From a virus (lineage: Duplodnaviria; Caudoviricetes), in the IMG/VR virus record IMGVR_UViG_3300028048_000055, positions 1 through 64,000 of that record: a DNA stretch of 64,000 bases; one strand, written 5' to 3'. The position numbers were made by a program, and so were the translations under genes. The notes below the pieces were generated by a model, which saw only the letters and a program-made list of their open reading frames with translations, was not told the origin of the DNA and did no database searches. This document shows, in pieces, positions 3,965 through 62,718 of this stretch. How positions within the stretch are numbered: position 1 is the stretch's first letter; each line of letters begins with the position of its first letter.

Positions 3965-5041
3965 ATGGCAAAGTTAAAACAAAATTATCTTGTTTTAAAG
4001 GTCGTTAAGATTGATGAAAAGAACGACCTATATGATAACATCTATAAGGTGACAGATGAGTCTGGTGAGCTTAATCTGCTCGGTTATTACGATGAAAAAC
4101 AGACTCAACCGATTTATATTCTGACGAATAAGACTGTTCTTGAATATGATTGGTCTGGTATTGCAAGCAGAGTAATGAAACAGAATAAGGAATATTGTGA
4201 CCAATTCCTTAATAAAGAACGAATTATTATCATTACTCCTGAAGCTAAGACGGAAGATCCTAGTAAGAATTATGTTATCAACGGTAATGTAATGTTTATT
4301 ACTGAATACCGTTATAATACAGAATTCAAGCAAGAAAATGTTATTCAAGAAAAGAAAGATGCACCTGAAAATAAAGTTGGCATTTTTGCTGGTATTAAGA
4401 AGGCTTTGGGTTTAAATACAACTGTAGTTAAGTCAAAAAAGTCTCAAGAAGAACAATATCAGACATTTGTCGGTGAATTAACAGAATCTGAAAAGTTTGC
4501 AGCAAAGCATGTTAAATGGGGCATTGCTTTCATGTTGCTTTTGTCTGCATTGTTTATCTATGTTCAGCATCGATATGATAATTCTTATAAGCCTACTGAA
4601 GTAACTGAAGAATTTATGCAAAAGATTACTCAGTCTACAAATAAGGTTGTTTTTGATAGTGTAAAAATTGATACGATTGCTATTCCTGAACAGCTTGCAC
4701 TTAATGAAAATCTTAATGTAACAACAGAACAGCAACGTTTTATTGATTCTTTAGCTAAGGAAAAGAGATATCAGGATAGTGTGACGCTTTATCTTAAGCT
4801 TAATAGAAAAGTAAAGGTTTCTTTGTATTCAGCTATTAATGATGGTCATACTGAAAGAACGGCTAAGACTGAAATGGTAGCAGATTCTCTTAGGTCTCAA
4901 GATATCGCACAACTTACTACAGTTATTAATAATATGACCAAGGAAATGAATAACGAACGTCTTGAAGAACTTAAGCAACAGAGATTCATTTCTCCTGGCA
5001 CAGAAGGAAACTTTGTCATAGGAATGAGTAAAGATGAATAA
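3965..5041 (+). CDS. membrane-anchored protein, paralog of 5034 and 55018
   Basis: TM segment plus shared C-terminal 'I.DG...R..K....VDS' motif. Confidence 0.7.
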   Translation: MAKLKQNYLVLKVVKIDEKNDLYDNIYKVTDESGELNLLGYYDEKQTQPIYILTNKTVLEYDWSGIASRVMKQNKEYCDQFLNKERIIIITPEAKTEDPSKNYVINGNVMFITEYRYNTEFKQENVIQEKKDAPENKVGIFAGIKKALGLNTTVVKSKKSQEEQYQTFVGELTESEKFAAKHVKWGIAFMLLLSALFIYVQHRYDNSYKPTEVTEEFMQKITQSTNKVVFDSVKIDTIAIPEQLALNENLNVTTEQQRFIDSLAKEKRYQDSVTLYLKLNRKVKVSLYSAINDGHTERTAKTEMVADSLRSQDIAQLTTVINNMTKEMNNERLEELKQQRFISPGTEGNFVIGMSKDE

Positions 5042-16998: not shown

Positions 16999-18189
16999 AT
17001 GATGCAGATACAAGGCAAATACGGTATTGCTGAAGTTTTTACAGATAATGTGTGTACAGAAGCATATACACAAATTCTTAATATTATGAATCAATGTTGG
17101 GCAAGAAATGCTGATATTAAATTTATGCCAGATATTTCGCCCGGACGTGATGCTTTGGTAGGCACTACCATGAAAGTTACCGATAAGGCAGTTCCAAATT
17201 TAATTGGTCCAGATATTGGATGCGGTATGCTTGTCGCAAAGCTTAAGGACAAGTTTATTGAATTTGGAAAACTTGATAAAGTTATCAAGGAAAAGATTCC
17301 ATCCGGTAAAAGTCATAATGATAAAAAACATCGTTATGCTAAAGAATTTGACGAAGAATTTGAAAAACTTATCGCTAATGTTAAGCGTGAAGAACTTCTG
17401 AGTATTTGTAGCCTTGGGTCGGGCAACCATTTCATTGAATGCGATAAGGATGAAGACGGTGCATTCTATATAGTTATTCATTCCGGTTCTCGTCATTTGG
17501 GTGTTGCTACTTGTGAATATTGGCAAAATCTTGCAATTAAGGATTGTGCTGACTTGACAGCAATTCGAGGTGCTGAAATAGCCAAGTATAAGAACCAAGG
17601 AAAGACGGATGCTGAAATTAAGGAACTTATGAAGGATTATGACCATTTCTCTGTTCCTAAGAATCTTTCTTATTTGACTGGTGAACATATGCAGGGTTAT
17701 CTGCATGATATGGAAATTGTCCAGCAGTTTGCCGTTATGAACCGTGCCGCAATGCTCGATGTTATTGTCAAGGAAATGGGTTTCAAGGTTGTCGAAAAGT
17801 TTGAAACTATTCACAACTATATCGATCTTAAGAATATGATTCTCCGTAAGGGTTCTATTTCTGCACAAGAAGGCGAAAGGGTCATTATTCCTATGAATAT
17901 GAGAGATGGTTCTTTGATTTGTGTCGGTAAGGGAAATCCAGATTGGAATTATTCAGCACCTCATGGAGCAGGTCGTTTAATGACCAGAAGTGATGCTAAG
18001 AACTCAATTTCTATGAAGGAGTATAAAGATGCTATGAAAGGAATTTTCACGTCCTGTGTGTCTTCCGCGACGATTGACGAGTCTCCTATGGCTTATAAGC
18101 CGATGGATGAAATCATAGCAAATATTGAACCTACTTGCACTATCGAAAAGATTATCAAGCCGGTTTATAACTTCAAGGCGGCATTTTAA
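16999..18189 (+). CDS. rtcB: RtcB-family RNA ligase
   Basis: MPD, DIGCG, SLGSGNHFIE, HSGSR, HNY, RKG, IPMNM, SAPHGAGR, DESPMAYK motifs. Confidence 0.95.
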   Translation: MMQIQGKYGIAEVFTDNVCTEAYTQILNIMNQCWARNADIKFMPDISPGRDALVGTTMKVTDKAVPNLIGPDIGCGMLVAKLKDKFIEFGKLDKVIKEKIPSGKSHNDKKHRYAKEFDEEFEKLIANVKREELLSICSLGSGNHFIECDKDEDGAFYIVIHSGSRHLGVATCEYWQNLAIKDCADLTAIRGAEIAKYKNQGKTDAEIKELMKDYDHFSVPKNLSYLTGEHMQGYLHDMEIVQQFAVMNRAAMLDVIVKEMGFKVVEKFETIHNYIDLKNMILRKGSISAQEGERVIIPMNMRDGSLICVGKGNPDWNYSAPHGAGRLMTRSDAKNSISMKEYKDAMKGIFTSCVSSATIDESPMAYKPMDEIIANIEPTCTIEKIIKPVYNFKAAF

Positions 18190-43482: not shown

Positions 43483-43521
43483 TAGTTTAGAGCAGTGGTT
43501 AGCTTATATTATAAATATTAT

Positions 43522-44280
43522 ATGGAATTAAAAATAAAACATATATGTAAATTTTGTAATATGGAGTTTACTACTGGGGCACAATTAGGAACACATATTT
43601 CTAAACAATGTCTTAAAAATCCAAATAGAGGAATACAAAAGAATTCTAAAATTTGGAAATGTTCAATTTGTGGTAATGATTTTCTTTCACGAAGAAGATT
43701 ACAACAGCATCGCAAAGATGAACATATTAACGAAATTAAAAGCAAATACTATGGGTATCATCCGATATTGAATATACCTTGTCAATTTTGCGGTTTAATT
43801 TGTAAAAGAGCTCGTGATTTAACAAGACATGAAAAATTTTGCAAAGAAAACCCAAATAAACAAATTTGGCAAGGACATAAAACTTCGGATGAAACTAAAA
43901 AGAAATTATCAGAAGCGGCTATTAAAAATCTTAGTGGTACACATTGTAATTGGTTAAATAAAAAGAAATCTTATGCTGAAGAATATTTTGAAACTATATT
44001 TACAAATGCTGAATCACAATATCAAGTTGGAAGATACGTATTAGATTTTGCATGGACTAAATCAAAAATTTATATTGAAGTTGATGGTGAACAGCATTAT
44101 ACTAAAGAAGGTATCGAACACGATAAGATTAGGACAGAATTTTTAATAGAAAATGGTTGGAGACTTTTAAAAAGAATTAGATGGTCTGAATTTCAAAAAC
44201 TTTCTAAAGCTGAACGTGAAAATGAAATTTATAGATTATTACAGACTATCAAAATTCAAGAAGAAACTAAAACGTTATGA
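43522..44280 (+). CDS. Zn-finger + DUF559/Vsr-like endonuclease
   Basis: C2H2-like fingers, Y.LDFAW..KIYIEVDGEQH; TATAAATA upstream. Confidence 0.85.
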   Translation: MELKIKHICKFCNMEFTTGAQLGTHISKQCLKNPNRGIQKNSKIWKCSICGNDFLSRRRLQQHRKDEHINEIKSKYYGYHPILNIPCQFCGLICKRARDLTRHEKFCKENPNKQIWQGHKTSDETKKKLSEAAIKNLSGTHCNWLNKKKSYAEEYFETIFTNAESQYQVGRYVLDFAWTKSKIYIEVDGEQHYTKEGIEHDKIRTEFLIENGWRLLKRIRWSEFQKLSKAERENEIYRLLQTIKIQEETKTL

Positions 44281-44541: not shown

Positions 44542-44660
44542 TATAGCATAGGTAGTTCCTATTACTAAGCGTATAGCTCAACTGGTGGAGCAGTTACCGA
44601 AAGGTAAAAGGTTGTCGGTTCGAATCCGATTGTGCTTGCCATTCGATACTACCCGCTATA
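44542..44660 (+). ncRNA. TCCTAT scaffold copy 2 enclosing an anticodon-less tRNA body (44567-44641, GAAA loop, CCA)
   Basis: TATAGC/GCTATA, GGTAGT/ACTACC. Confidence 0.75.
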
Positions 44661-44670
44661 AGGGTTTAAC

Positions 44671-44739
44671 GGCATAAGACGTTCCTATTTAGCTCATGTG
44701 AGCGTTTGATTGATATTCAAAAGGTTATTACGTCTCGCC
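44671..44739 (+). ncRNA. TCCTAT scaffold copy 3 (mini D arm + Ile GAT anticodon loop)
   Basis: GGC/GCC, AGACGT/ACGTCT; TTTGA-TTGATAT-TCAAA. Confidence 0.75.
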
Positions 44740-44796
44740 AAACTTTTAACAAAAAGAGAACAAACAAAAACATAAATAAACAAAAGAGAAAATAAA

Positions 44797-45403: not shown

Positions 45404-46039
45404 ATGAATGAATATATATGTAAATTTTGCGGTAAGATTTGTAAAAACATAAATTCTTTAAAAAATCATGAAAGATTATGTAAATTAAATCCTAATAGAC
45501 AAATATCGCCATTTGTAAAATATAATGCAGAGCATGAAACAAGTTGGAATAAAGGGCTTACAAAAGAAAATGATGAAAGAGTTAAGCAAATGGCTGAAAC
45601 TATGAGTCAAAAAATAAGAGCAGGCCTAATACATAACTATGATCATCAAAAAGTATGGACAGAAGAACGTAGAAAAGCACAATCTGAAAGGAAAAAGAAA
45701 TTTTATGAAGAACACCCAGAAAAGCATCCTAATAGCTTAGTAGCTGGTGCACTTAATAAAATGACATATCCTGAAAAATTAGTTACTGAATATTTAAAAG
45801 AACATAATATAACAGCAGAACATAATTGGTATTTTAAAACAGAAAAATTTACAAGATATATAGATTTTTATATAGATGAATTAAAATTATTTATTGAAGT
45901 TGATGGAGAATATTGGCACAAAGATAAACAAAAAGATATTGATAAAGATAATGATGCATTAATGTATGGTTATAAAACATTAAGGTTAAAACCAAAAACA
46001 GTTATAACACAATTAAATGAATTTTTTAATATGGCATAG
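45404..46039 (+). CDS. Zn-finger + DUF559/Vsr-like endonuclease
   Basis: CKFCG..H.RLC, WNKGLTKE, DFY..IEVDGEYWH. Confidence 0.85.
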   Translation: MNEYICKFCGKICKNINSLKNHERLCKLNPNRQISPFVKYNAEHETSWNKGLTKENDERVKQMAETMSQKIRAGLIHNYDHQKVWTEERRKAQSERKKKFYEEHPEKHPNSLVAGALNKMTYPEKLVTEYLKEHNITAEHNWYFKTEKFTRYIDFYIDELKLFIEVDGEYWHKDKQKDIDKDNDALMYGYKTLRLKPKTVITQLNEFFNMA

Positions 46040-46098
46040 GAAGTTCCTATTAGCTCAATGAGCATTTGATTGTTAATCAAAAGGTTTTACTTCCCGCC
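46033..46098 (+). ncRNA. TCCTAT scaffold copy 4 (mini D arm + Asn GTT anticodon loop)
   Basis: GGC/GCC, GGAAGT/ACTTCC; TTTGA-TTGTTAA-TCAAA. Confidence 0.75.
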
Positions 46099-46109
46099 TA
46101 AATTTTTTA

Positions 46110-46222: not shown

Positions 46223-46882
46223 ATGGAAGAAAATTATATTTGTAAATTTTGTGGGAAACAATGTAAAAATGCTAATTCTTTACGAAATCACGAAAGATTT
46301 TGTAAAGAAAACCCTGAACACCAAGAATCTCCATGGATAAAATTTAATCATGAACGAGGCGCTTGGAATAAAGGATTAACTAAAGATACGGATGAACGTA
46401 TTAAAAAACGTAGCGAAACATTTTCAAAACGCTATAAAGGCACTGAAGAAGGGAAACGAATTTTTAGTCATCCGCAATCTGAAGAACATAAACAAAAAAT
46501 GCGTAAAATTGCAACAGAAAGACATTGGGGCGGTTGGCATACCTCAAAATCTATTGAATTTAATGGTATAAATTTAGATTCTAGTTATGAAGTTGAAGTA
46601 GCAAATCAACTTAATGAAAATAAAATAAAATGGGAAAGACCTACTTATTTTCTATGGGAAGATACTAATGGAGTAAAACATCGTTATTATCCTGATTTTT
46701 ATCTTCCAGAATATAATGTATATCTTGACCCAAAAAATGATTATTTAATAAATAATAAATCTAAAAAATTTGGTATTACTGATGTTGAAAAAATAATGAA
46801 AGTTGAACAACAAAATGGAATACGTATAATTATTTTAGATAAAGATAATTTAACATGGGAAAACATTAAAGAAAAGATTTAA
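46223..46882 (+). CDS. Zn-finger + PD-(D/E)XK (TnsA-like) endonuclease
   Basis: DSSYE, YYPDFYLPEYNVYLDPK; TATAAATA upstream. Confidence 0.85.
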   Translation: MEENYICKFCGKQCKNANSLRNHERFCKENPEHQESPWIKFNHERGAWNKGLTKDTDERIKKRSETFSKRYKGTEEGKRIFSHPQSEEHKQKMRKIATERHWGGWHTSKSIEFNGINLDSSYEVEVANQLNENKIKWERPTYFLWEDTNGVKHRYYPDFYLPEYNVYLDPKNDYLINNKSKKFGITDVEKIMKVEQQNGIRIIILDKDNLTWENIKEKI

Positions 46883-48612: not shown

Positions 48613-48734
48613 CGACGAGTAGCTCAATTGGTAGAGCACATGTTTTTTATACCAACCGCTACTTGGCAAACTTGGTTCCTATTAATTATGGAATAGGTCC
48701 ATGGGGGTTGTAGGTTCGAGTCCTACCTTCCCGG
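48613..48734 (+). ncRNA. tRNA-like RNA with a circularly permuted TCCTAT scaffold in place of the anticodon loop
   Basis: D and T arms intact; T-ACCAAC-C-GCTA-CT-TGGC-AAA-CTTGGT-TCCTATT inside the CATG/CATG stem. Confidence 0.65.
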
Positions 48735-48941: not shown

Positions 48942-48970
48942 TTGACAAACCAAAAACTTTTTACTATATT
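48942..48970 (+). promoter_or_regulatory. sigma70-type promoter of tRNA block 3
   Basis: TTGACA-N17-TATATT. Confidence 0.8.
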
Positions 48971-49032
48971 TTAATCAAACAAAAAACAAAAACAGGAAAA
49001 AAATTTTTATATATAATATAAAAGGTAACAAA

Positions 49033-49140
49033 ATGAACAAGAACTTTAACATTGAATTCATCGCGATTGCAGCAGAACGTATTGCAGAATTTGCAGAACG
49101 TGTTTTTGCGATTGACAATTCAGTGCACAGGTTCAAGTAA
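49033..49140 (+). CDS. attenuator leader peptide 3 MNKNFNIEFIAIAAERIAEFAERVFAIDNSVHRFK
   Basis: AAGGT SD; A6 E4 F5 I5 V2. Confidence 0.9.
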   Translation: MNKNFNIEFIAIAAERIAEFAERVFAIDNSVHRFK

Positions 49141-49170
49141 ACGAAATTACTTAAGGTATGAAGAATTTAC

Positions 49171-49205
49171 GGTTCCTGTGTATAACACAGGGACCTTAAT
49201 TTTTT
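49171..49205 (+). terminator. attenuator terminator 3
   Basis: GGTTCCTGTG/CACAGGGACC plus T-rich tail. Confidence 0.85.
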
Positions 49206-49297: not shown

Positions 49298-49368
49298 GGG
49301 CTTATGATGTAATGGTAGCATAATAGCTTTGCAAGCTATTTGTTAGGTTTCGAATACCTATAGGTCCA
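49298..49368 (+). tRNA. tRNA-Ala(TGC)
   Basis: cloverleaf, G3.U70. Confidence 0.88.
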
Positions 49369-49377
49369 CTATATTAT

Positions 49378-49451
49378 GCCGCTCAATCCGAATCCAGTGA
49401 TCGGACGGGACTGAAAATCCCAGAAGCTCAGGGCAGCACTGAGGGGCGGCA
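49378..49451 (+). tRNA. tRNA-Phe(GAA)
   Basis: cloverleaf, atypical D and T loops. Confidence 0.78.
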
Positions 49452-49463
49452 CGAAAACATTAT

Positions 49464-49537
49464 GGGCCAGTAGCCTAGTAGGAAAGGCACCGCACCTGCA
49501 ATGCGGAGTTCATGGGTTCGATCCCCATCTGTGTCCA
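49464..49537 (+). tRNA. tRNA-Ala(TGC), C33, bulged acceptor
   Basis: cloverleaf, G3.U70. Confidence 0.78.
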
Positions 49538-49547
49538 CTAAATTTTT

Positions 49548-49620
49548 GGGCTCGCATGTACCCTGGAGGCGAGCTGGCCTTGCAAGCCGGCTGAGATGGG
49601 TTCGACACCCACCGGGTCCA
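49548..49620 (+). tRNA. tRNA-Ala(TGC), weak D arm
   Basis: G3.U70; anticodon and T arms clear. Confidence 0.75.
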
Positions 49621-49677
49621 TGAAAATAAATTTACATTAAGGAGTTAAAATGGGAACTGATATGTAAAAATAAATAT

Positions 49678-49750
49678 GGGCTTATGGTGTAATTGGTAAC
49701 ATGTCGGCTTTGCAAGCCGAAGAGTCCGGAATCGTCCTCCGGTAGGTCCA
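49678..49750 (+). tRNA. tRNA-Ala(TGC)
   Basis: G3.U70, atypical T loop. Confidence 0.8.
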
Positions 49751-49755
49751 CTAAT

Positions 49756-49830
49756 GGGGGCAAAGGTTACTTTTCGCAACTTTTGCACAAAGAGTTCCTA
49801 ACTATATTGGTTCAATTCCAATAGCCTCCA
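49756..49830 (+). ncRNA. Ala-type acceptor/T-arm minihelix fused to a permuted TCCTA scaffold
   Basis: GGGGGC/GCCTCC-A with G3.U70; T-ACTTTT-C-GCAA-CTT-TTGC-ACA-AAGAGT-TCCTAA. Confidence 0.65.
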
Positions 49831-49840
49831 CTAAATTTAT

Positions 49841-49915
49841 GGGGCTGTAGCTCAGTTTTGGTGGAGCGGAAGACTGAAGATCTTCGCGTCGCAGGTTCGA
49901 TTCCTGCCGGGGGCA
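49841..49915 (+). tRNA. tRNA-Phe(GAA)-like, mismatched acceptor stem
   Basis: GGGGCTG vs CGGGGGC (three G.G pairs). Confidence 0.65.
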
Positions 49916-50331: not shown

Positions 50332-50395
50332 CTAAATTAAATTTTAATATTTAAAAGGATTGACATTAGTCAATCCTTTTTCTATATTATAGTAT

Positions 50396-51951: not shown

Positions 51952-52071
51952 AATAGCAAAAGCGGTTCCTATAACCAGAGGAATAGCTTAGTTGGTTAGA
52001 GCAACGCAGCAATGCGGAGGCCGTCGGTTCGAGTCCGATTTCCCCTACCATCAAGTTTACTGCTCGCTATT
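51952..52071 (+). ncRNA. TCCTAT scaffold copy 6 enclosing an anticodon-less tRNA body (51977-52050, GCAA loop, CCA)
   Basis: AATAGC/GCTATT, AGCGGT/ACTGCT. Confidence 0.75.
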
Positions 52072-52566: not shown

Positions 52567-53331
52567 ATGAATTACAGAAACATATATTATAAGATAATTG
52601 AGAAAGCAAAAAACGAGGATAAAAATGGACACAGACAGTTAGGTTATTTTGAAAAACATCATATATTACCTAAGTCATTAGGCGGTAGTAATGATAAAAA
52701 TAATTTAGTTAAACTTACAGCACGTGAACATTTTATTTGTCATTGGCTACTTGTTAAAATGTATGATAAAGGAACTGATGAAAGAAATAAAATGCTATGT
52801 GCTCTTTGGCGAATGCGTTCAAATCCATTACAAAATCATATACGGTATACTAATGCTAGAACATATGAAAATTTAAGAATAGAATATTCAAAAATTATAA
52901 GTAATCAAATGCATATTATACAAATGGGTAAAAACAATTCACAATTTGGAACTAAATGGTATACAAATAGAAATACAGGAGAAAGTAAAAAATTTAAAGA
53001 AAAACCAAAAGAAGAATATTGGATTGAAGGTAGAAATTTGTTTCATGGCGAAAGCAGTGTATTAAAAATAAAATTAATAACATTACGACATACTGAAACT
53101 AAAGTGCCGCAAAAAAATTATTTAAAATCAGTTGATGATGCACATAAATTATGGGATGAGTTTCATTCTGGAACTTATGAAAAATTAGATGACTTTGCTA
53201 AAATACACAATAAAACTAGAAGTGCAATATTTGTAAAATTTAAAAGATATATACCAGCATTTAATACAGATAAAAAACGTAGTTGCAGAAGTTATAAATC
53301 AAATAATATATTAATTGGAAAATATGAATAA
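52567..53331 (+). CDS. HNH homing endonuclease
   Basis: EKHHILPKSLGG...NLVKLTAREHFICHWLL. Confidence 0.9.
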   Translation: MNYRNIYYKIIEKAKNEDKNGHRQLGYFEKHHILPKSLGGSNDKNNLVKLTAREHFICHWLLVKMYDKGTDERNKMLCALWRMRSNPLQNHIRYTNARTYENLRIEYSKIISNQMHIIQMGKNNSQFGTKWYTNRNTGESKKFKEKPKEEYWIEGRNLFHGESSVLKIKLITLRHTETKVPQKNYLKSVDDAHKLWDEFHSGTYEKLDDFAKIHNKTRSAIFVKFKRYIPAFNTDKKRSCRSYKSNNILIGKYE

Positions 53332-53887: not shown

Positions 53888-54607
53888 ATGAATTACTTAG
53901 AATTAAATGATAAAGGTAAGCTCGGAAGTGATGAGCAAAAATTGGCCGACTATTTTGGAGTCGGTCATTATACTACATTTTATAAAAAGCATTTTTTACA
54001 AAATAAAATAAAACTCACTAAGGATGATTTTATTGCAGGCGTAATTCCAGTAATGTTTTGCGCTATGAAAAAACTTAACATTGATTATAAGCATGATGAT
54101 TATCCTGAACAGCTACAAAAATATCTTCATCGTAGAATTTGGGAATCGACTCTTGGTCGTATAAAAACTAGTGTCTTTAATGATTATCTATTTGGACCTG
54201 TTTTTATTAAACCAAAAGATAAATTAAAAAAGTTTACTGGTTTTGTTTTAAATTCAAGAGATGATTGGCTTCTTACTGAAGGCGCAGGCGATAGCACGAA
54301 AATTATCTGTTCAAAACCGGTAAAATGGGTTACAGAATATCGTATTCCTGTAATTAATGGCGTCGCAAGAGATTATTGTCATTATTTTGGAAATCCAGGT
54401 ATATTTGTAGATAAGGCTGTAATTCAAAATATGATAGGTGATTGGAAAGATTCTCCAAAAGCATATTGCTTGGATGTTGGAGTCTTAGATACTGGAGAAA
54501 CTGCATTAATAGAAGTTAATGATGCATTTAGCTGCGGTAGTTACTCAATGAGTGCTGAAACCTATGGTGATTTACTGACAACAAGATGGAATGAGTTAAA
54601 AGGTTGA
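53888..54607 (+). CDS. ATP-grasp (R2K/DUF4343-like) protein
   Basis: DYPEQL, FIKP..K.FTG, EYR, LDVG..LIEVND. Confidence 0.8.
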   Translation: MNYLELNDKGKLGSDEQKLADYFGVGHYTTFYKKHFLQNKIKLTKDDFIAGVIPVMFCAMKKLNIDYKHDDYPEQLQKYLHRRIWESTLGRIKTSVFNDYLFGPVFIKPKDKLKKFTGFVLNSRDDWLLTEGAGDSTKIICSKPVKWVTEYRIPVINGVARDYCHYFGNPGIFVDKAVIQNMIGDWKDSPKAYCLDVGVLDTGETALIEVNDAFSCGSYSMSAETYGDLLTTRWNELKG

Positions 54608-55408: not shown

Positions 55409-55852
55409 ATGAGAAGACTATTTATTATTAGAAAAGATTTACATCTTACAGGCGGTAAACTAGCCGCCATGATAGGACATTGTGCAGAATGTTATTGGAT
55501 GAACTTAATTAAATCTGCCAATCGACCGTTTAATGACGGTCCAGGTACATTAGTATCTTTTGTCATCGACGATGATGTTATGCAAAATTATATTCAAGGT
55601 ATTTTCACTAAGACCATTTGTGAAGCAAAGAACCTTAATCATTTGATGAAGGTTGTTGATATTGCTAAAAAACTTGGTCTTGTTGAAGGTACTGATTACG
55701 GTTTTATCGATGATGTATGTAAGACAGAACTTACTCCAGAATTTACCGATGAAAATGGTGTTGACCGTTGTCGTGTAGGAATCTGGTTTAAACCGTTGTC
55801 GGATGAAATCAGTCATAAGCTTAGTAAGAAATATCAATTATACAAGGGTTGA
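55409..55852 (+). CDS. peptidyl-tRNA hydrolase 2 (Pth2)-like protein
   Basis: IIRKDL...GKLAAMIGH, TKTIC, IDD.C.TE motifs. Confidence 0.85.
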   Translation: MRRLFIIRKDLHLTGGKLAAMIGHCAECYWMNLIKSANRPFNDGPGTLVSFVIDDDVMQNYIQGIFTKTICEAKNLNHLMKVVDIAKKLGLVEGTDYGFIDDVCKTELTPEFTDENGVDRCRVGIWFKPLSDEISHKLSKKYQLYKG

Positions 55853-58267: not shown

Positions 58268-58489
58268 ATGACTAACTTTGAAATGTGAAAGGAATCGCTC
58301 ACTGCAGAAGAGTGGGCAAATAAATTTGTAGAACTGGATTATTGTCCAAAATGTCCAGCCTATAGTTTTTGTAGAGATTGTGATATATTGAATCCAACAA
58401 AGTTAGATGGAACAGTCAATACAGAAGAATGTAATAATACTTGTAGAAAGAGATTTCTTACTTGGGCAAATAAAGATGCACAATGTTAA
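58268..58489 (+). CDS. Cys-rich small protein with in-frame TGA at codon 7
   Basis: MTNFEM*KESLTAEEWANKF...CPKCPAYSFC...CRKRFLTWAN. Confidence 0.5.
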
Positions 58490-58799
58490 ACATGCATATG
58501 TATATTGTAATGATAAGCTTGCGGGTCATTTGTTAAGAAACCGCAAGCATTATGTTTTTATATACGATAAAGATTATGTTGGTCCATCTATTGCCATAAA
58601 TTTTCCTAAATCAACTAGATACTATTCTAGTCCGTATTTATTTCCGTATTTTTATGGATTGTTGCCAGAAGGTGAAAATAAAGAATTCTATTGCAAAATA
58701 TTTCACCTTAATCCAGATGATAATTTTGAAATCCTGACAAATTTAGCATGGCATGAAACAATTGGTCCTGTTACTGTAAGACCTTTCAAAAACGGTTGA
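58476..58799 (+). CDS. stand-alone HipA N-terminal domain (HipS-like) protein
   Basis: AG.L...YVFIYD..Y, LFPYFYGLLPEG, D.F.IL, ETIGPVTV. Confidence 0.85.
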   Translation: MHNVKHAYVYCNDKLAGHLLRNRKHYVFIYDKDYVGPSIAINFPKSTRYYSSPYLFPYFYGLLPEGENKEFYCKIFHLNPDDNFEILTNLAWHETIGPVTVRPFKNG

Positions 58800-60725: not shown

Positions 60726-61262
60726 ATGTCAATAAGTTTAATTGAAAAATATGGAGAAGATTATATACGTAATGTTTTTAAAACTGCCAAAACAGTTGAT
60801 GAAGCATGTGAAAAATTACAAACAATAACAAAATATTTAAATTATTATGCAAAAGAATTAAATTGTATTGATGATTATAATAGAATAAAAATTAATTCTA
60901 GTCAAATTGTTAAAGAACGTTTAAAAGATTATCCAGATGCATACATAATGAAAAATGTTAATGGTGTAGTTACACGTACTATAAATGATGATGCATGGCT
61001 TAAATTAATTTTTGAAAATAAAATTAGTAGTAAAAAACAAACAATATTACGTATTCTTATTAAAGCAGGATATAAAGAAAATAAATGTGAATGTTGCGGT
61101 ATTAATGAATGGAATAAAAAACCAATAACTTTACAATTACATCACAAAAATGGAAATCCACGTGATAATTGTTTAGAAAATTTAGAAATATTATGTCCAA
61201 ATTGTCATTCACAAACTAATAATTATGGAAGTAAAAATGCGGCATTACATATAAAAGATTAA
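60726..61262 (+). CDS. HNH endonuclease
   Basis: CECCG...LQLHHKNGNPRDN..ENLEILCPNCHS. Confidence 0.9.
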   Translation: MSISLIEKYGEDYIRNVFKTAKTVDEACEKLQTITKYLNYYAKELNCIDDYNRIKINSSQIVKERLKDYPDAYIMKNVNGVVTRTINDDAWLKLIFENKISSKKQTILRILIKAGYKENKCECCGINEWNKKPITLQLHHKNGNPRDNCLENLEILCPNCHSQTNNYGSKNAALHIKD

Positions 61263-61884: not shown

Positions 61885-62718
61885 ATGAAGTTAAAATACA
61901 TATGTCAATATTGTAATAAAGAATTAACTAGGCCATGTGCATTAGCTATACATCAACGTGTTTGTAAATTAAATCCAAATAGACAACCGTTAATAAATAA
62001 TGGTAATTTAAATATAGCTAAATATCATAAACCTAAGGCTCCATATGGAACATGGAAATGTAAGTGGTGTAATAATGACATTATTTTTGATACTAGAAAA
62101 CAATTAAAAGAACATTTAAAAGAAAAACATCCAGAAAAACGTAATGCATGGAATAAAGGCTTAACAAAAGAAACTGATGAACGTGTTAAACAATTTGGTC
62201 AAACATATTCTAAGCGAATAAAAAATAAAGAAATATCTGCACTTTTTGCAGGCAAAAAACATACAGATGAATGGCGAAAAAATCATTCAGAATTACAAAA
62301 AGAAAGATATAAAGGAATATCGATATATGCAACCGTAAGGGAAAAACGAAAATCTTATCCTGAACAATATTTTGATAAAATATTTAGTGATGCAGAAAAA
62401 CAATATCATGTAGATAGTTATTTTTTAGATTATGCATGGCCATATATTAAATTATATATTGAAGTTGATGGTGAACAACATTATACTGAATCTGGTTTAC
62501 TTCATGATAAAGAAAGAGCAGAAATATTAAGTAAATTAGGTTGGAATTGTATTACGCGTATTAGATGGAAAAATTATATAAAATTAACAACTAATGAAAA
62601 AGAAAATTTTATAAATAATTTATTAAATAAAATTAATATTTTTAAAAATGAAACTATAGGAAGCAAAACAGACTGCCGGCTCCTATATACGGTGTACAAC
62701 GTCGAAGATAAGGTCTAG
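61885..62718 (+). CDS. Zn-finger + DUF559/Vsr-like endonuclease
   Basis: paralog of 43522; LDYAW..LYIEVDGEQHY. Confidence 0.85.
   Translation: MKLKYICQYCNKELTRPCALAIHQRVCKLNPNRQPLINNGNLNIAKYHKPKAPYGTWKCKWCNNDIIFDTRKQLKEHLKEKHPEKRNAWNKGLTKETDERVKQFGQTYSKRIKNKEISALFAGKKHTDEWRKNHSELQKERYKGISIYATVREKRKSYPEQYFDKIFSDAEKQYHVDSYFLDYAWPYIKLYIEVDGEQHYTESGLLHDKERAEILSKLGWNCITRIRWKNYIKLTTNEKENFINNLLNKINIFKNETIGSKTDCRLLYTVYNVEDKV

What the first reader, a model, noticed from the sequence alone, without database searches (positions are those of the whole stretch)
49756..49830. Alanine-identity minihelix fused to the permuted scaffold
Seen: GGGGGC/GCCTCC-A acceptor with G3.U70 and A73 plus a T arm. The D and anticodon arms are replaced by the circularly permuted scaffold. 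It sits among the Ala tRNAs. Known: G3.U70 suffices for AlaRS charging, as in the tmRNA tRNA-like domain. Inference: an alanylatable non-decoding RNA.
Basis: partly seen in the sequence, partly recalled or inferred. Interest (0 to 1): 0.7.

Follow-up and report, generated by a model that had tools for sequence, protein, structure and literature searches.

The report
Alanine tRNA top-half on handle RNA
A giant cattle-gut phage encodes a conserved 75-base RNA that joins the amino-acid-accepting half of an alanine tRNA to a protein-docking "handle" hairpin shared by many phage and bacterial small RNAs, so it can probably be loaded with alanine but cannot read codons.

Summary
Bases 49756-49830 fold into a 6-bp acceptor stem (G3.U70, A73), a 6-bp T stem with a UUCAAUU loop, and a three-stem hairpin in place of the D and anticodon arms.

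It is a real gene. I found 12 sequence variants in about 25 rumen or gut phage contigs. Three base pairs show compensatory changes, the acceptor end never varies, and a tRNA-Ala lies just upstream in 9 of the 11 aligned variants.

The hairpin is a closed, permuted copy of a "handle" module. Twelve copies sit in this phage's tRNA region (43-67 kb; the one at 66938-66991 lies just past the window's end). Across phages and about 45 bacterial genomes the handle sits directly upstream of an unannotated protein of 585-650 aa. In Chryseobacterium that pair lies in an RtcB/RlaP RNA-repair operon, as Y RNAs lie beside Ro60.

The phage has its own CCA-adding enzyme. A sister phage lineage encodes a minimal AlaRS 1.8 kb upstream of the homologue.

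Best reading: a non-decoding, tRNA-processed and probably alanylatable adaptor RNA. Charging, processing and protein binding are all untested.

It is not a tmRNA, a tRNA or a YrlA. This scan noted the handle family before on other DNA (e1-5482318).

The parts
49756..49761 (+). Acceptor stem, 5' strand GGGGGC (G3 is the G of the G.U pair)
   Evidence: Invariant in 11 variants and in the homologue from G003 that BLAST found.
49762..49763 (+). AA connector, at the position of tRNA nucleotides 8-9
   Evidence: Invariant.
49764..49799 (+). Handle module in closed (permuted) form. Order: stem C 3' side AGG, UU, stem B' ACUUUU, bulged C, stem A' GCAA, loop CUU, stem A UUGC, ACA, stem B AAGAGU, U, stem C CCU.
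   Evidence: Fold. Same motif as the open-ended copies. Pair 19-35 covaries U-A/C-G. The same closed hairpin replaces the anticodon loop of tRNA-like genes in about 22 viral loci and 45 bacterial loci.
49800..49804 (+). Linker AACUA (3-9 nt in homologues), at the position of a tRNA variable loop
   Evidence: This is the most variable stretch.
49805..49823 (+). T arm: 6-bp stem (UAUUGG/CCAAUA) and T loop UUCAAUU
   Evidence: Pair 50-68 occurs as U-A, G-C and A-U, and pair 51-67 as A-U and G-C.
49824..49829 (+). Acceptor stem, 3' strand GCCUCC (U at tRNA position 70)
   Evidence: Invariant, although the search pattern did not fix it.
49830..49830 (+). Discriminator A73, followed by CUAA as after the neighbouring tRNAs. 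No CCA is encoded.
48942..49195 (+). Front of the operon: promoter-like TTGACA-17-TATATT (48942-48970), a 35-codon leader ORF rich in Ala/Ile/Phe/Glu (49033-49140), and a terminator-like hairpin (49171-49195)
49298..49751 (+). Four tRNA-Ala(UGC) genes directly upstream, all with G3.U70
50353..50380 (+). Terminator-like hairpin that closes the tRNA block holding the candidate

Best explanation
The 75-nt gene makes a stable, tRNA-shaped but anticodon-less RNA built from two modules.

Module 1 is the top half of a tRNA-Ala. It is a 12-bp acceptor/T stack (6+6 bp) carrying the complete acceptor-branch alanine identity set and a canonical T loop. This is the part that RNase P, 3'-end trimming enzymes, the CCA-adding enzyme, AlaRS and EF-Tu recognise in tRNAs and in minihelices (established knowledge). 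The RNA is therefore most likely cut out of the tRNA operon transcript and given a CCA tail, for which the phage has its own enzyme. It is probably charged with alanine by host AlaRS or, in a sister lineage, by a phage-encoded minimal AlaRS.

Module 2 is the 'handle': stems C, B and A with an AWA/C internal loop and a GU/UCCU junction. It is the constant part of a large RNA family. Its genes sit directly upstream of a conserved protein of 585-650 aa, which has a TerD-like C-terminal domain and an N-terminal domain of unknown fold. This holds in many phages and in bacteria, where the pair lies in an RtcB/RlaP/R2K RNA-repair operon.

By analogy with Y RNAs and Ro60, the handle most likely docks the RNA on that protein, and the variable module is what gets displayed or tethered. 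This phage displays anticodon arms, whole anticodon-less tRNA shapes and, in this RNA, an alanine acceptor end. The acceptor end would either recruit or bait proteins that bind the tRNA-Ala acceptor arm, or cap and protect the RNA.

Shown here: structure, conservation, covariation, family membership, gene linkage and the enzyme genes. Inferred: processing, CCA addition, charging, protein binding and the biological role.
For: Structure and stability.

Conservation: the RNA is 74/75 identical to the copy in L013, and the single change keeps a pair. The flanking tRNAs differ at 22 of 149 positions (Fisher p = 0.0009). There are 12 variants in about 25 contigs.

Covariation: it occurs at pairs 19-35, 50-68 and 51-67, with 97.5% of cells paired against 33-59% when the partners are slid.

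Acceptor end: the 3' strand and discriminator never vary, while 6 of 12 T-stem positions do.

Processing context: the spacer and trailer match those of real tRNAs in the array.

Handle family: all 10 open copies in this record's tRNA region have 6/6 stem-B pairs with different sequences. In 48 of 76 phage loci that encode the protein, at least one handle lies within 1.5 kb upstream on the same strand. Of 116 handles, 96 fall in 3.7% of the bases searched and none is on the other strand. In 38 of 45 bacterial loci the protein gene starts 69-364 nt downstream of a tRNA-like handle RNA. The Chryseobacterium operon reads RtcB, RNA, partner protein, RlaP, a 214-aa ORF, R2K. In this phage a handle lies just before the 650-aa ORF.

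Enzyme genes: RtcB, a CCA-adding-type nucleotidyltransferase, and an AlaRS fragment 1.8 kb upstream of the homologue in G001, G004 and G005.

Precedent: M. smegmatis YrlA is cut by RNase P and receives CCA in vivo (PMC4201824). Alanine determinants: PMC9976931.
Against: There is no direct evidence for transcript ends, a CCA tail, charging or protein binding. The RNA-library contigs that cover the RNA cannot show transcription or ends.

The AlaRS fragment occurs in a single phage species (three records, 100% identical). It sits next to ordinary tRNA-Ala genes too, so it need not serve this RNA. G003, a complete genome, has the RNA but no AlaRS. G000 has none in its 165 kb.

The acceptor 5' strand was fixed by my search pattern in most variants, and overall divergence is small, so the invariance of G3.U70 is only modest evidence of selection.

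Seven of 11 variants carry a U.U mismatch in stem B.

The partner protein shows no RNA-binding fold that I could recognise. The cellular handle RNAs show no alanine identity, so charging is not a general property of the family.
Confidence: 0.6

Rival explanations
1. It is an uncharged decoy or sponge. The RNA shows a tRNA-Ala acceptor arm to a host factor that attacks or binds that arm, such as a defence tRNase, a toxin that modifies the acceptor end, or AlaRS itself. The alanine identity nucleotides matter for mimicry and not for charging. The handle only adds stability or localisation.
For: The same phage displays other tRNA pieces on the handle: anticodon arms with GAU and GUU, and whole tRNA shapes with a GNRA loop in place of the anticodon loop. 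The phage and bacterial contexts are RNA-repair and conflict genes such as RtcB, RlaP, PTH2 and a CCA enzyme. Jumbo-phage tRNA-repair arsenals are read this way in PMC7824862.
Against: No candidate target is identified. An RNA with an intact acceptor/T minihelix and a full identity set would be hard to keep uncharged in a cell that has AlaRS. This rival overlaps the best explanation instead of excluding it.
Confidence: 0.2
2. It is a mini-tmRNA. An alanylated tRNA-like domain, together with SmpB or a phage analogue, enters stalled ribosomes and donates alanine without supplying a tag reading frame.
For: The Rfam tmRNA model aligns its two ends to the RNA (17.2 bits, local E = 2e-4). It has G3.U70, A73 and a helix leaving the body where tmRNA helix 2 does. 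A PTH2 peptidyl-tRNA hydrolase gene lies in the tRNA region.
Against: The score is far below the gathering threshold of 47 bits. There is no D-loop analogue, no pseudoknots, no resume codon and no ORF in 75 nt. No SmpB gene was found in G000-G004. The arm is the family-wide handle, which also occurs on RNAs that have no acceptor end at all. ARAGORN finds no tmRNA.
Confidence: 0.06
3. The tRNA half is only a processing and stability cassette. The minihelix makes RNase P and the 3'-end enzymes release the closed handle hairpin cleanly from the tRNA operon, and a CCA end protects it from exonucleases. This would be a natural version of the laboratory 'tRNA scaffold'. Alanine identity would be a leftover from the tRNA-Ala gene it came from.
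For: Most bacterial and many phage handle RNAs are tRNA bodies with the handle at the anticodon position and with varied acceptor sequences. Chen et al. proposed that CCA addition, and possibly aminoacylation, protects YrlA. The RNA lies inside a tRNA operon with tRNA-like spacing.
Against: All four alanine determinants stay fixed while the T stem and linker change. The T arm does not resemble those of the neighbouring tRNA-Ala genes, so this is not a recent leftover. The conserved placement after a tRNA-Ala, and near an AlaRS fragment in one lineage, points to alanine-specific use.
Confidence: 0.1
4. It is a decaying tRNA-Ala pseudogene, or a tRNA gene disrupted by insertion of a small mobile DNA element or an intron.
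For: It lies in a block of duplicated tRNA-Ala genes. Homing-endonuclease-like ORFs are scattered through the arrays. The neighbouring tRNA-Phe looks damaged.
Against: It is more conserved than the flanking tRNAs, shows compensatory changes, and occurs in at least 25 contigs in three different neighbourhoods. Handle copies differ in sequence but keep their pairing, which points to selection on the RNA and not to transposition. Removing the handle would leave no tRNA, and open-ended handles cannot be introns.
Confidence: 0.04

Closest known systems
tRNA-like domain of tmRNA (Rfam RF00023)
   Same: An acceptor stem with G3.U70 and A73, a canonical T arm, no anticodon, and a helix leaving the body where the anticodon/D side would be. 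tmRNA is alanylated by AlaRS (established knowledge).
   Different: This RNA is only 75 nt. It has no D-loop analogue, pseudoknots or tag ORF. It scores 17.2 bits against a 47-bit threshold. No SmpB gene was found in the phage lineage. The arm is a family-specific handle closed by a 3-nt loop.
Bacterial and phage Y RNAs of the YrlA type with Ro60/Rsr, especially M. smegmatis YrlA (PMC4201824)
   Same: A modular RNA made of a protein-docking stem plus a tRNA-like module. The gene sits beside the partner protein gene and, in bacteria, beside RtcB. M. smegmatis YrlA is cut by RNase P, receives CCA, and 'could potentially be aminoacylated'.
   Different: The docking module is different: there is no GNCGAAN0-1G motif and no Rfam YrlA match on this RNA. 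The partner is not a TROVE protein but an unannotated protein of 585-650 aa with a TerD-like domain. Here the acceptor ends are the RNA's natural ends, and they carry a complete alanine identity set.
Synthetic tRNA-Ala minihelix and microhelix substrates of AlaRS (Francklyn and Schimmel 1989, cited in PMC9976931)
   Same: An acceptor/T 12-bp stack with G3.U70 and A73 and without D or anticodon arms. Such helices are charged with alanine in vitro.
   Different: This is a natural, conserved gene. The stack is split 6+6 instead of 7+5, and it carries a 36-nt structured arm between the two strands.
D-armless mitochondrial tRNAs
   Same: An acceptor stem, a short connector, one long arm, a short variable linker and a T arm.
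   Different: Those tRNAs keep a 7-nt anticodon loop and decode. Here the arm ends in a 3-nt loop and holds conserved internal-loop motifs.
Handle RNAs noted earlier by this scan on other DNA (e1-5482318)
   Same: The same TCCTAT-type handle beside a large unannotated protein in giant phages and some bacteria. I reproduced this here with independent searches.
   Different: This member has the handle closed. It displays a free alanine-identity acceptor end instead of a closed or anticodon-type cargo.

Membership tests
tRNA (RF00005) | Cloverleaf with a D arm and an anticodon arm bearing a 7-nt loop | tested here: not met
   The Rfam tRNA model gives no match even at E <= 10, and ARAGORN makes no call. 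The fold shows one irregular hairpin closed by a 3-nt loop.
tRNA (RF00005) | Acceptor stem stacked on a T arm (12 bp) with a T loop of the UUCRANY type | tested here: met
   6+6 bp, loop UUCAAUU, with covariation in the T stem.
tmRNA (RF00023) | Score at or above the Rfam gathering threshold; pseudoknots and a tag reading frame | tested here: not met
   17.2 bits against 47, with only the model's two ends aligned. The RNA is 75 nt in all. ARAGORN finds no tmRNA.
tmRNA (RF00023) | Alanine-identity acceptor (G3.U70, A73) | tested here: met
tmRNA (RF00023) | Works with SmpB | tested here: inconclusive
   No SmpB gene in G000-G004, but the unknown host surely has one. Binding cannot be tested with these tools.
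Y RNA, YrlA type (RF02553) | Ro60-binding stem with the conserved motif, next to a TROVE (rsr) gene | tested here: not met
   No YrlA match on the RNA. No TROVE gene in G000-G004.
Y RNA, YrlA type (RF02553) | Modular design: a protein-docking stem plus a tRNA-like module, with the gene linked to the partner protein and to RtcB | tested here: met
   The analogous layout is present with a different handle and a different protein. This shows that it works like a Y RNA, not that it is one.
Handle RNA family (undescribed; absent from Rfam 15) | Stem A, AWA opposite C, stem B ending GU/AC, U, and CCU(AU) of stem C | tested here: met
   All elements are present in closed, permuted order. L027-type variants have UCCUC in place of UCCUA, and the G003 copy has AAC in place of AWA.
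Handle RNA family (undescribed; absent from Rfam 15) | Partner protein gene in the same genome | tested here: met
   650-aa ORF at G000 67007-68959 with a handle just upstream. It is not adjacent to the candidate itself.
Substrates of bacterial AlaRS | A73, G2-C71, G3.U70 and G4-C69 (G20 is a minor determinant) | tested here: met
   All four acceptor-branch determinants are present and invariant. G20 is absent because there is no D loop.
Substrates of bacterial AlaRS | A 3'-CCA end and actual alanylation | not testable with these tools
   CCA is not encoded, as for the ordinary tRNAs of the array surveyed. A CCA-adding-type enzyme gene lies at G000 119154-120419. Only contigs, not raw reads, were available.

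The most novel reading that the evidence does not exclude
The RNA is alanylated in infected cells, by host AlaRS or by the phage's own 445-aa AlaRS fragment. It is held through its handle on the conserved RNA-repair-associated protein. That would make it an aminoacylated Y-RNA-like particle: a charged, non-decoding tRNA top half used outside normal decoding, for example as a sensor, a bait or an alanine donor.
Probability: 0.3. Interest if true: 0.85.

Novelty: new variant of a known kind. Interest (0 to 1): 0.74.

Why it matters
Natural RNAs that can be aminoacylated but do not decode are very few: tmRNA, viral tRNA-like ends and a few dedicated cell-wall tRNAs. This would be a new one, and it is built from parts.

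It also points to a much larger unrecognised system. A handle RNA and a protein of about 600 aa form a gene pair that is conserved from Chryseobacterium and cyanobacteria to 400-kb rumen phages. In bacteria the pair sits in an RtcB RNA-repair operon, where Ro60 and Y RNAs sit in Salmonella.

The phage panel of handle RNAs shows different tRNA parts, and it offers a ready-made set of probes for what that protein does. The alanine member, together with a phage-encoded minimal AlaRS, makes one question directly testable with simple charging assays: do tRNA-like repair RNAs use aminoacylation?

Tried and rejected
- **Ro60-type partner.** No TROVE gene in G000-G004 and no DUF2828 match in G000. The DUF2828 control rang nowhere, so that result is uninformative.
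- **SmpB and RlaP.** Neither was found in G000-G004.
- **Fold of the 650-aa protein.** Only a TerD-like C-terminal domain came out: VIA Z 8.4, rmsd 3.5, 132 residues aligned to 2qz7_B. Foldseek on the whole model gave nothing credible. The N-terminal 410 residues modelled alone matched only a generic helical hairpin at Z about 7. The PDB sequence profile search, Pfam and NCBIfam and the ESM Atlas gave no name. A ring fold is therefore neither shown nor excluded.
- **Cultured phages.** BLAST against GenBank phages found only generic tRNA similarity.
- **Sequencing runs.** Only Logan contigs were available. Contigs from one metatranscriptome run cover the RNA, but this cannot show transcription, ends or a CCA tail.
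- **Handle as a known ribozyme, K-turn, archaeal splice motif or riboswitch.** No Rfam family matched at E <= 10, and the conserved letters fit none that I know.
- **Handle as an intron.** Open-ended copies, and this RNA itself, cannot be introns.
- **Handle as mobile DNA.** The copies covary, and they are not near-identical.
- **FRT resemblance.** GAAGTTCCTATT matches a yeast FRT half-site. I judge this a coincidence, because stem B varies.
- **Other truncated phage AlaRS genes.** The search was swamped by partial bacterial entries, and the viral scan found only one species.
- **Literature.** Burroughs and Aravind 2016 (PMC5062991), which may mention the protein family, is not held. Literature searches found no description of the RNA.

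Full report
**Setting.** The window is the first 64 kb of a 165-kb IMG/VR phage record, estimated 40% complete. Complete relatives are 411-424 kb. Runs that hold the stretch are bovine and goat gut metagenomes. Bases 43-64 kb hold 38 tRNA genes called by ARAGORN, plus several more that only Rfam calls.

The candidate lies in one operon. A promoter-like site sits at 48942-48970. A 35-codon leader ORF rich in Ala, Ile, Phe and Glu runs from 49033 to 49140, followed by a terminator-like hairpin at 49171-49195. Next comes a block of Glu, Ala x4, the candidate, Phe, Glu x2, Val and Ile-like genes, and a closing terminator at 50353-50380.

**The observation.** The minimum-energy fold is -23.1 kcal/mol, z = -4.2, and none of 200 shuffles folds as well. 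It has these parts:
- a 6-bp acceptor stem with a G.U pair at position 3;
- an unpaired A at the 3' end;
- a 6-bp T stem with loop UUCAAUU;
- between them a single irregular hairpin.

The acceptor and T stems stack to 12 bp, as in tRNA, but split 6+6. Two A residues and a 5-nt linker occupy the places of nucleotides 8-9 and of the variable loop. The overall shape is that of a D-armless tRNA whose long arm ends in a 3-nt loop. ARAGORN and the Rfam tRNA model do not call it. The tmRNA model aligns only its two ends, at 17.2 bits against a 47-bit threshold.

**The middle hairpin is a permuted 'handle'.** Every + strand GTTCCTA in the tRNA region belongs to one motif: stem A, AWA, stem B ending in GU, UCCUA(U), a variable insert, U, stem B' starting with AC, a bulged C, and stem A'. 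All ten open-ended copies have 6 of 6 stem-B pairs, with different sequences in each. A third stem, CCU(AU)/(AU)AGG, often follows stem B. In the candidate the same three stems occur in the order C', B', A', loop, A, B, C. Stem A is closed and stem C opens onto the minihelix.

The inserts in the open copies are varied:
- AT-rich hairpins;
- D arm plus anticodon arm with GAU or GUU (44670-44740, 46032-46099);
- two complete tRNA shapes whose anticodon loop is a GNRA tetraloop and which, unlike the ordinary tRNAs of the array surveyed, encode CCA (44544-44658, 51954-52069).

A second closed handle replaces the anticodon loop of a tRNA-like gene at 48613-48734.

**The candidate is a conserved gene.** A pattern for the closed handle found a near-identical copy in L013. 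It is 74/75 identical, and the one change turns a U.G pair into U-A. The adjacent tRNA-Phe and tRNA-Glu differ at 22 of 149 positions (p = 0.0009).

A more specific pattern found 16 metagenome loci and 8 viral loci. BLAST found one more copy in a complete 416-kb genome. Together these make 12 distinct variants. On the 11-sequence alignment, 97.5% of cells are paired, against 33-59% for slid partners. Three pairs change on both sides: 19-35 in stem B, and 50-68 (three pair types) and 51-67 in the T stem.

The acceptor 3' strand and the discriminator never vary, and the pattern did not fix them. Six of the 12 T-stem positions do vary. The G003 copy, found without any pattern, has the same 5' strand.

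A tRNA-Ala lies 4-5 nt upstream in 9 of 11 variants, and a tRNA-Glu in the other two. Downstream there is a tRNA or a terminator. Seven variants carry a U.U mismatch in stem B, which I cannot explain.

**Alanine context.** The RNA has A73, G2-C71, G3.U70 and G4-C69. This is the whole acceptor-branch identity set listed for bacterial tRNA-Ala. Minihelices with these features are charged by AlaRS (PMC9976931 and its reference 110).

No CCA is encoded, as for the ordinary tRNAs of the array surveyed. The phage and its complete relatives encode a CCA-adding-type nucleotidyltransferase.

In G001, G004 and G005, which are three records of one phage species, a 445-aa protein matches only positions 1-437 of the 552-position AlaRS catalytic-domain model (E = 1e-183). 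It ends at a true stop that is followed by a promoter. It lies 1.8 kb upstream of the candidate homologue on the same strand. Between them lie two handle RNAs, two tRNA-like handle RNAs, an Ala/Phe/Glu-rich leader and the tRNA block. From general knowledge, this length corresponds to the minimal AlaRS fragment that recognises the acceptor helix.

The link is suggestive but not exclusive. Ordinary tRNA-Ala genes lie there too. One complete genome has the RNA without an AlaRS. One complete genome has neither.

**What the handle is for.** A handle copy sits just before a 650-aa ORF at G000 67007-68959. That protein has more than 1500 unnamed homologues and no Pfam or NCBIfam family.

In 76 viral loci that encode a relative, with identity down to about 25%, 48 have at least one handle within 1.5 kb upstream on the same strand. 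Of 116 handles, 96 lie in 3.7% of the bases searched, and none is on the opposite strand.

A scan of one genome per prokaryotic species with the closed-handle pattern gave 45 real hits. They fall in about 40 Chryseobacterium species, Epilithonimonas, Tenacibaculum, cyanobacteria, Kapaibacterium, Desulfobacteraceae and gammaproteobacterial MAGs. Each hit is a tRNA-like gene with the handle at the anticodon position. In 38 of them a homologue of the protein (27-34% identity) starts 69-364 nt downstream on the same strand.

In Chryseobacterium the order is RtcB, RNA, partner protein, RlaP, a 214-aa ORF, and an R2K ATP-grasp protein. This is the layout of known RNA-repair operons, and of the Salmonella rsr-yrlBA-rtcBA operon, where Ro60 and Y RNAs take these places (PMC4201824, PMC7824862; bioRxiv 10.64898/2025.12.29.696909). 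The window phage also has RtcB (16999-18189), an R2K ATP-grasp gene (53888-54607) and PTH2 (55409-55852).

The protein model (pLDDT 79.5) shows a TerD-like beta sandwich at residues 424-593 (Z 8.4) and a helical N-terminal part with no informative match. I therefore infer, from gene linkage alone, that the handle docks on this protein.

**Mechanism proposed.** The RNA is a two-module adaptor. The minihelix gives it tRNA-type maturation and very likely a CCA end, and it makes the RNA a plausible AlaRS substrate. The handle ties it to the partner protein.

The closest precedent is M. smegmatis YrlA. It is cut by RNase P, receives CCA in vivo, and was said to be potentially aminoacylatable.

I cannot decide whether the alanine end recruits or baits acceptor-arm binding proteins, reports charging, or merely caps the RNA. 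Cellular handle RNAs show no alanine identity: pair 3-70 is A-U, G.U or G-C, and the discriminator is mostly U. The alanine set is therefore a special feature of this phage member.

**Comparison and novelty.** It is not a tRNA, a tmRNA or a YrlA, because defining features were tested and not met. It works like a Y RNA in design and like a tRNA-Ala minihelix at its end. No Rfam family and no paper I could search describes the handle or this RNA. One key paper could not be read. This scan had already noted the handle family on other DNA (e1-5482318). I used that as a lead and reproduced the protein linkage independently.

Noticed in passing
window 49841-49915: In this window the tRNA-Phe(GAA) next to the candidate has GGG where its L013 counterpart has CCC in the acceptor 3' strand. 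This gives three mismatches in the acceptor stem. It may be a damaged gene, a local inversion or an assembly error.
   Followed up: partly
window 44544-44658 and 51954-52069: Two open-ended handle RNAs enclose complete tRNA shapes whose anticodon loop is replaced by a GNRA tetraloop (GAAA, GCAA). Unlike the ordinary tRNAs of the array surveyed, they encode CCA.
   Followed up: partly
window 44670-44740 and 46032-46099: Two handle RNAs whose insert is a D arm with a tiny loop plus an anticodon arm (anticodons GAU and GUU), with no T arm or acceptor.
   Followed up: no
window 48613-48734: A tRNA-like gene with a closed handle and a UCCUAUU/AAUAGG hairpin in place of the anticodon loop. Its acceptor stem has two mismatches. 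The same design is common in phages and is the standard form in bacteria.
   Followed up: partly
G000:C1:66938-68959 (L030:2938-4959), just beyond the window: A handle RNA directly upstream of a 650-aa ORF. The protein has a TerD-like C-terminal domain, no Pfam or NCBIfam family and more than 1500 unnamed homologues.
   Followed up: yes
L141:1001-6766 (Chryseobacterium sp. LC2016-27): A chromosomal operon: RtcB, tRNA-like handle RNA, 585-aa partner protein, RlaP nucleotidyltransferase, a 214-aa ORF, and an R2K ATP-grasp protein. It looks like an uncharacterised RNA-repair module analogous to rsr-yrlBA-rtcBA.
   Followed up: partly
L128:1988-3325 (G001 147487-148824): A phage-encoded 445-aa AlaRS catalytic fragment without editing or C-terminal domains. 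Its nearest cellular relatives are Fibrobacter and Chitinispirillia AlaRS (59-64% identity), which hints at a Fibrobacterota host.
   Followed up: partly
window 16999-18189; 53888-54607; 55409-55852; 58407-58799; G000 119154-120419: RtcB RNA ligase, R2K ATP-grasp protein, PTH2 peptidyl-tRNA hydrolase, a HipA N-terminal domain protein and a CCA-adding-type nucleotidyltransferase. Together they form a tRNA repair and maintenance gene set.
   Followed up: partly
window 43495-44280, 45404-46039, 46223-46882, 61885-62718; 52567-53331, 60726-61262: ORFs with zinc-finger plus DUF559 (Vsr-like endonuclease) domains, and HNH ORFs, lie between the tRNA blocks. They are probably homing endonucleases.
   Followed up: no
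window 49033-49195, and L128 about 3978-4140: Short leader ORFs rich in Ala, Phe, Glu and Ile, each followed by a terminator hairpin, precede the Ala/Glu/Phe tRNA block both in this phage and in G001. This fits the leader-peptide attenuators noted elsewhere in this genome.
   Followed up: partly
window 49771 with 49793 (stem B of the candidate): In 7 of 11 variants the U-A pair here is a U.U mismatch, although the neighbouring pair covaries. No explanation so far.
   Followed up: no
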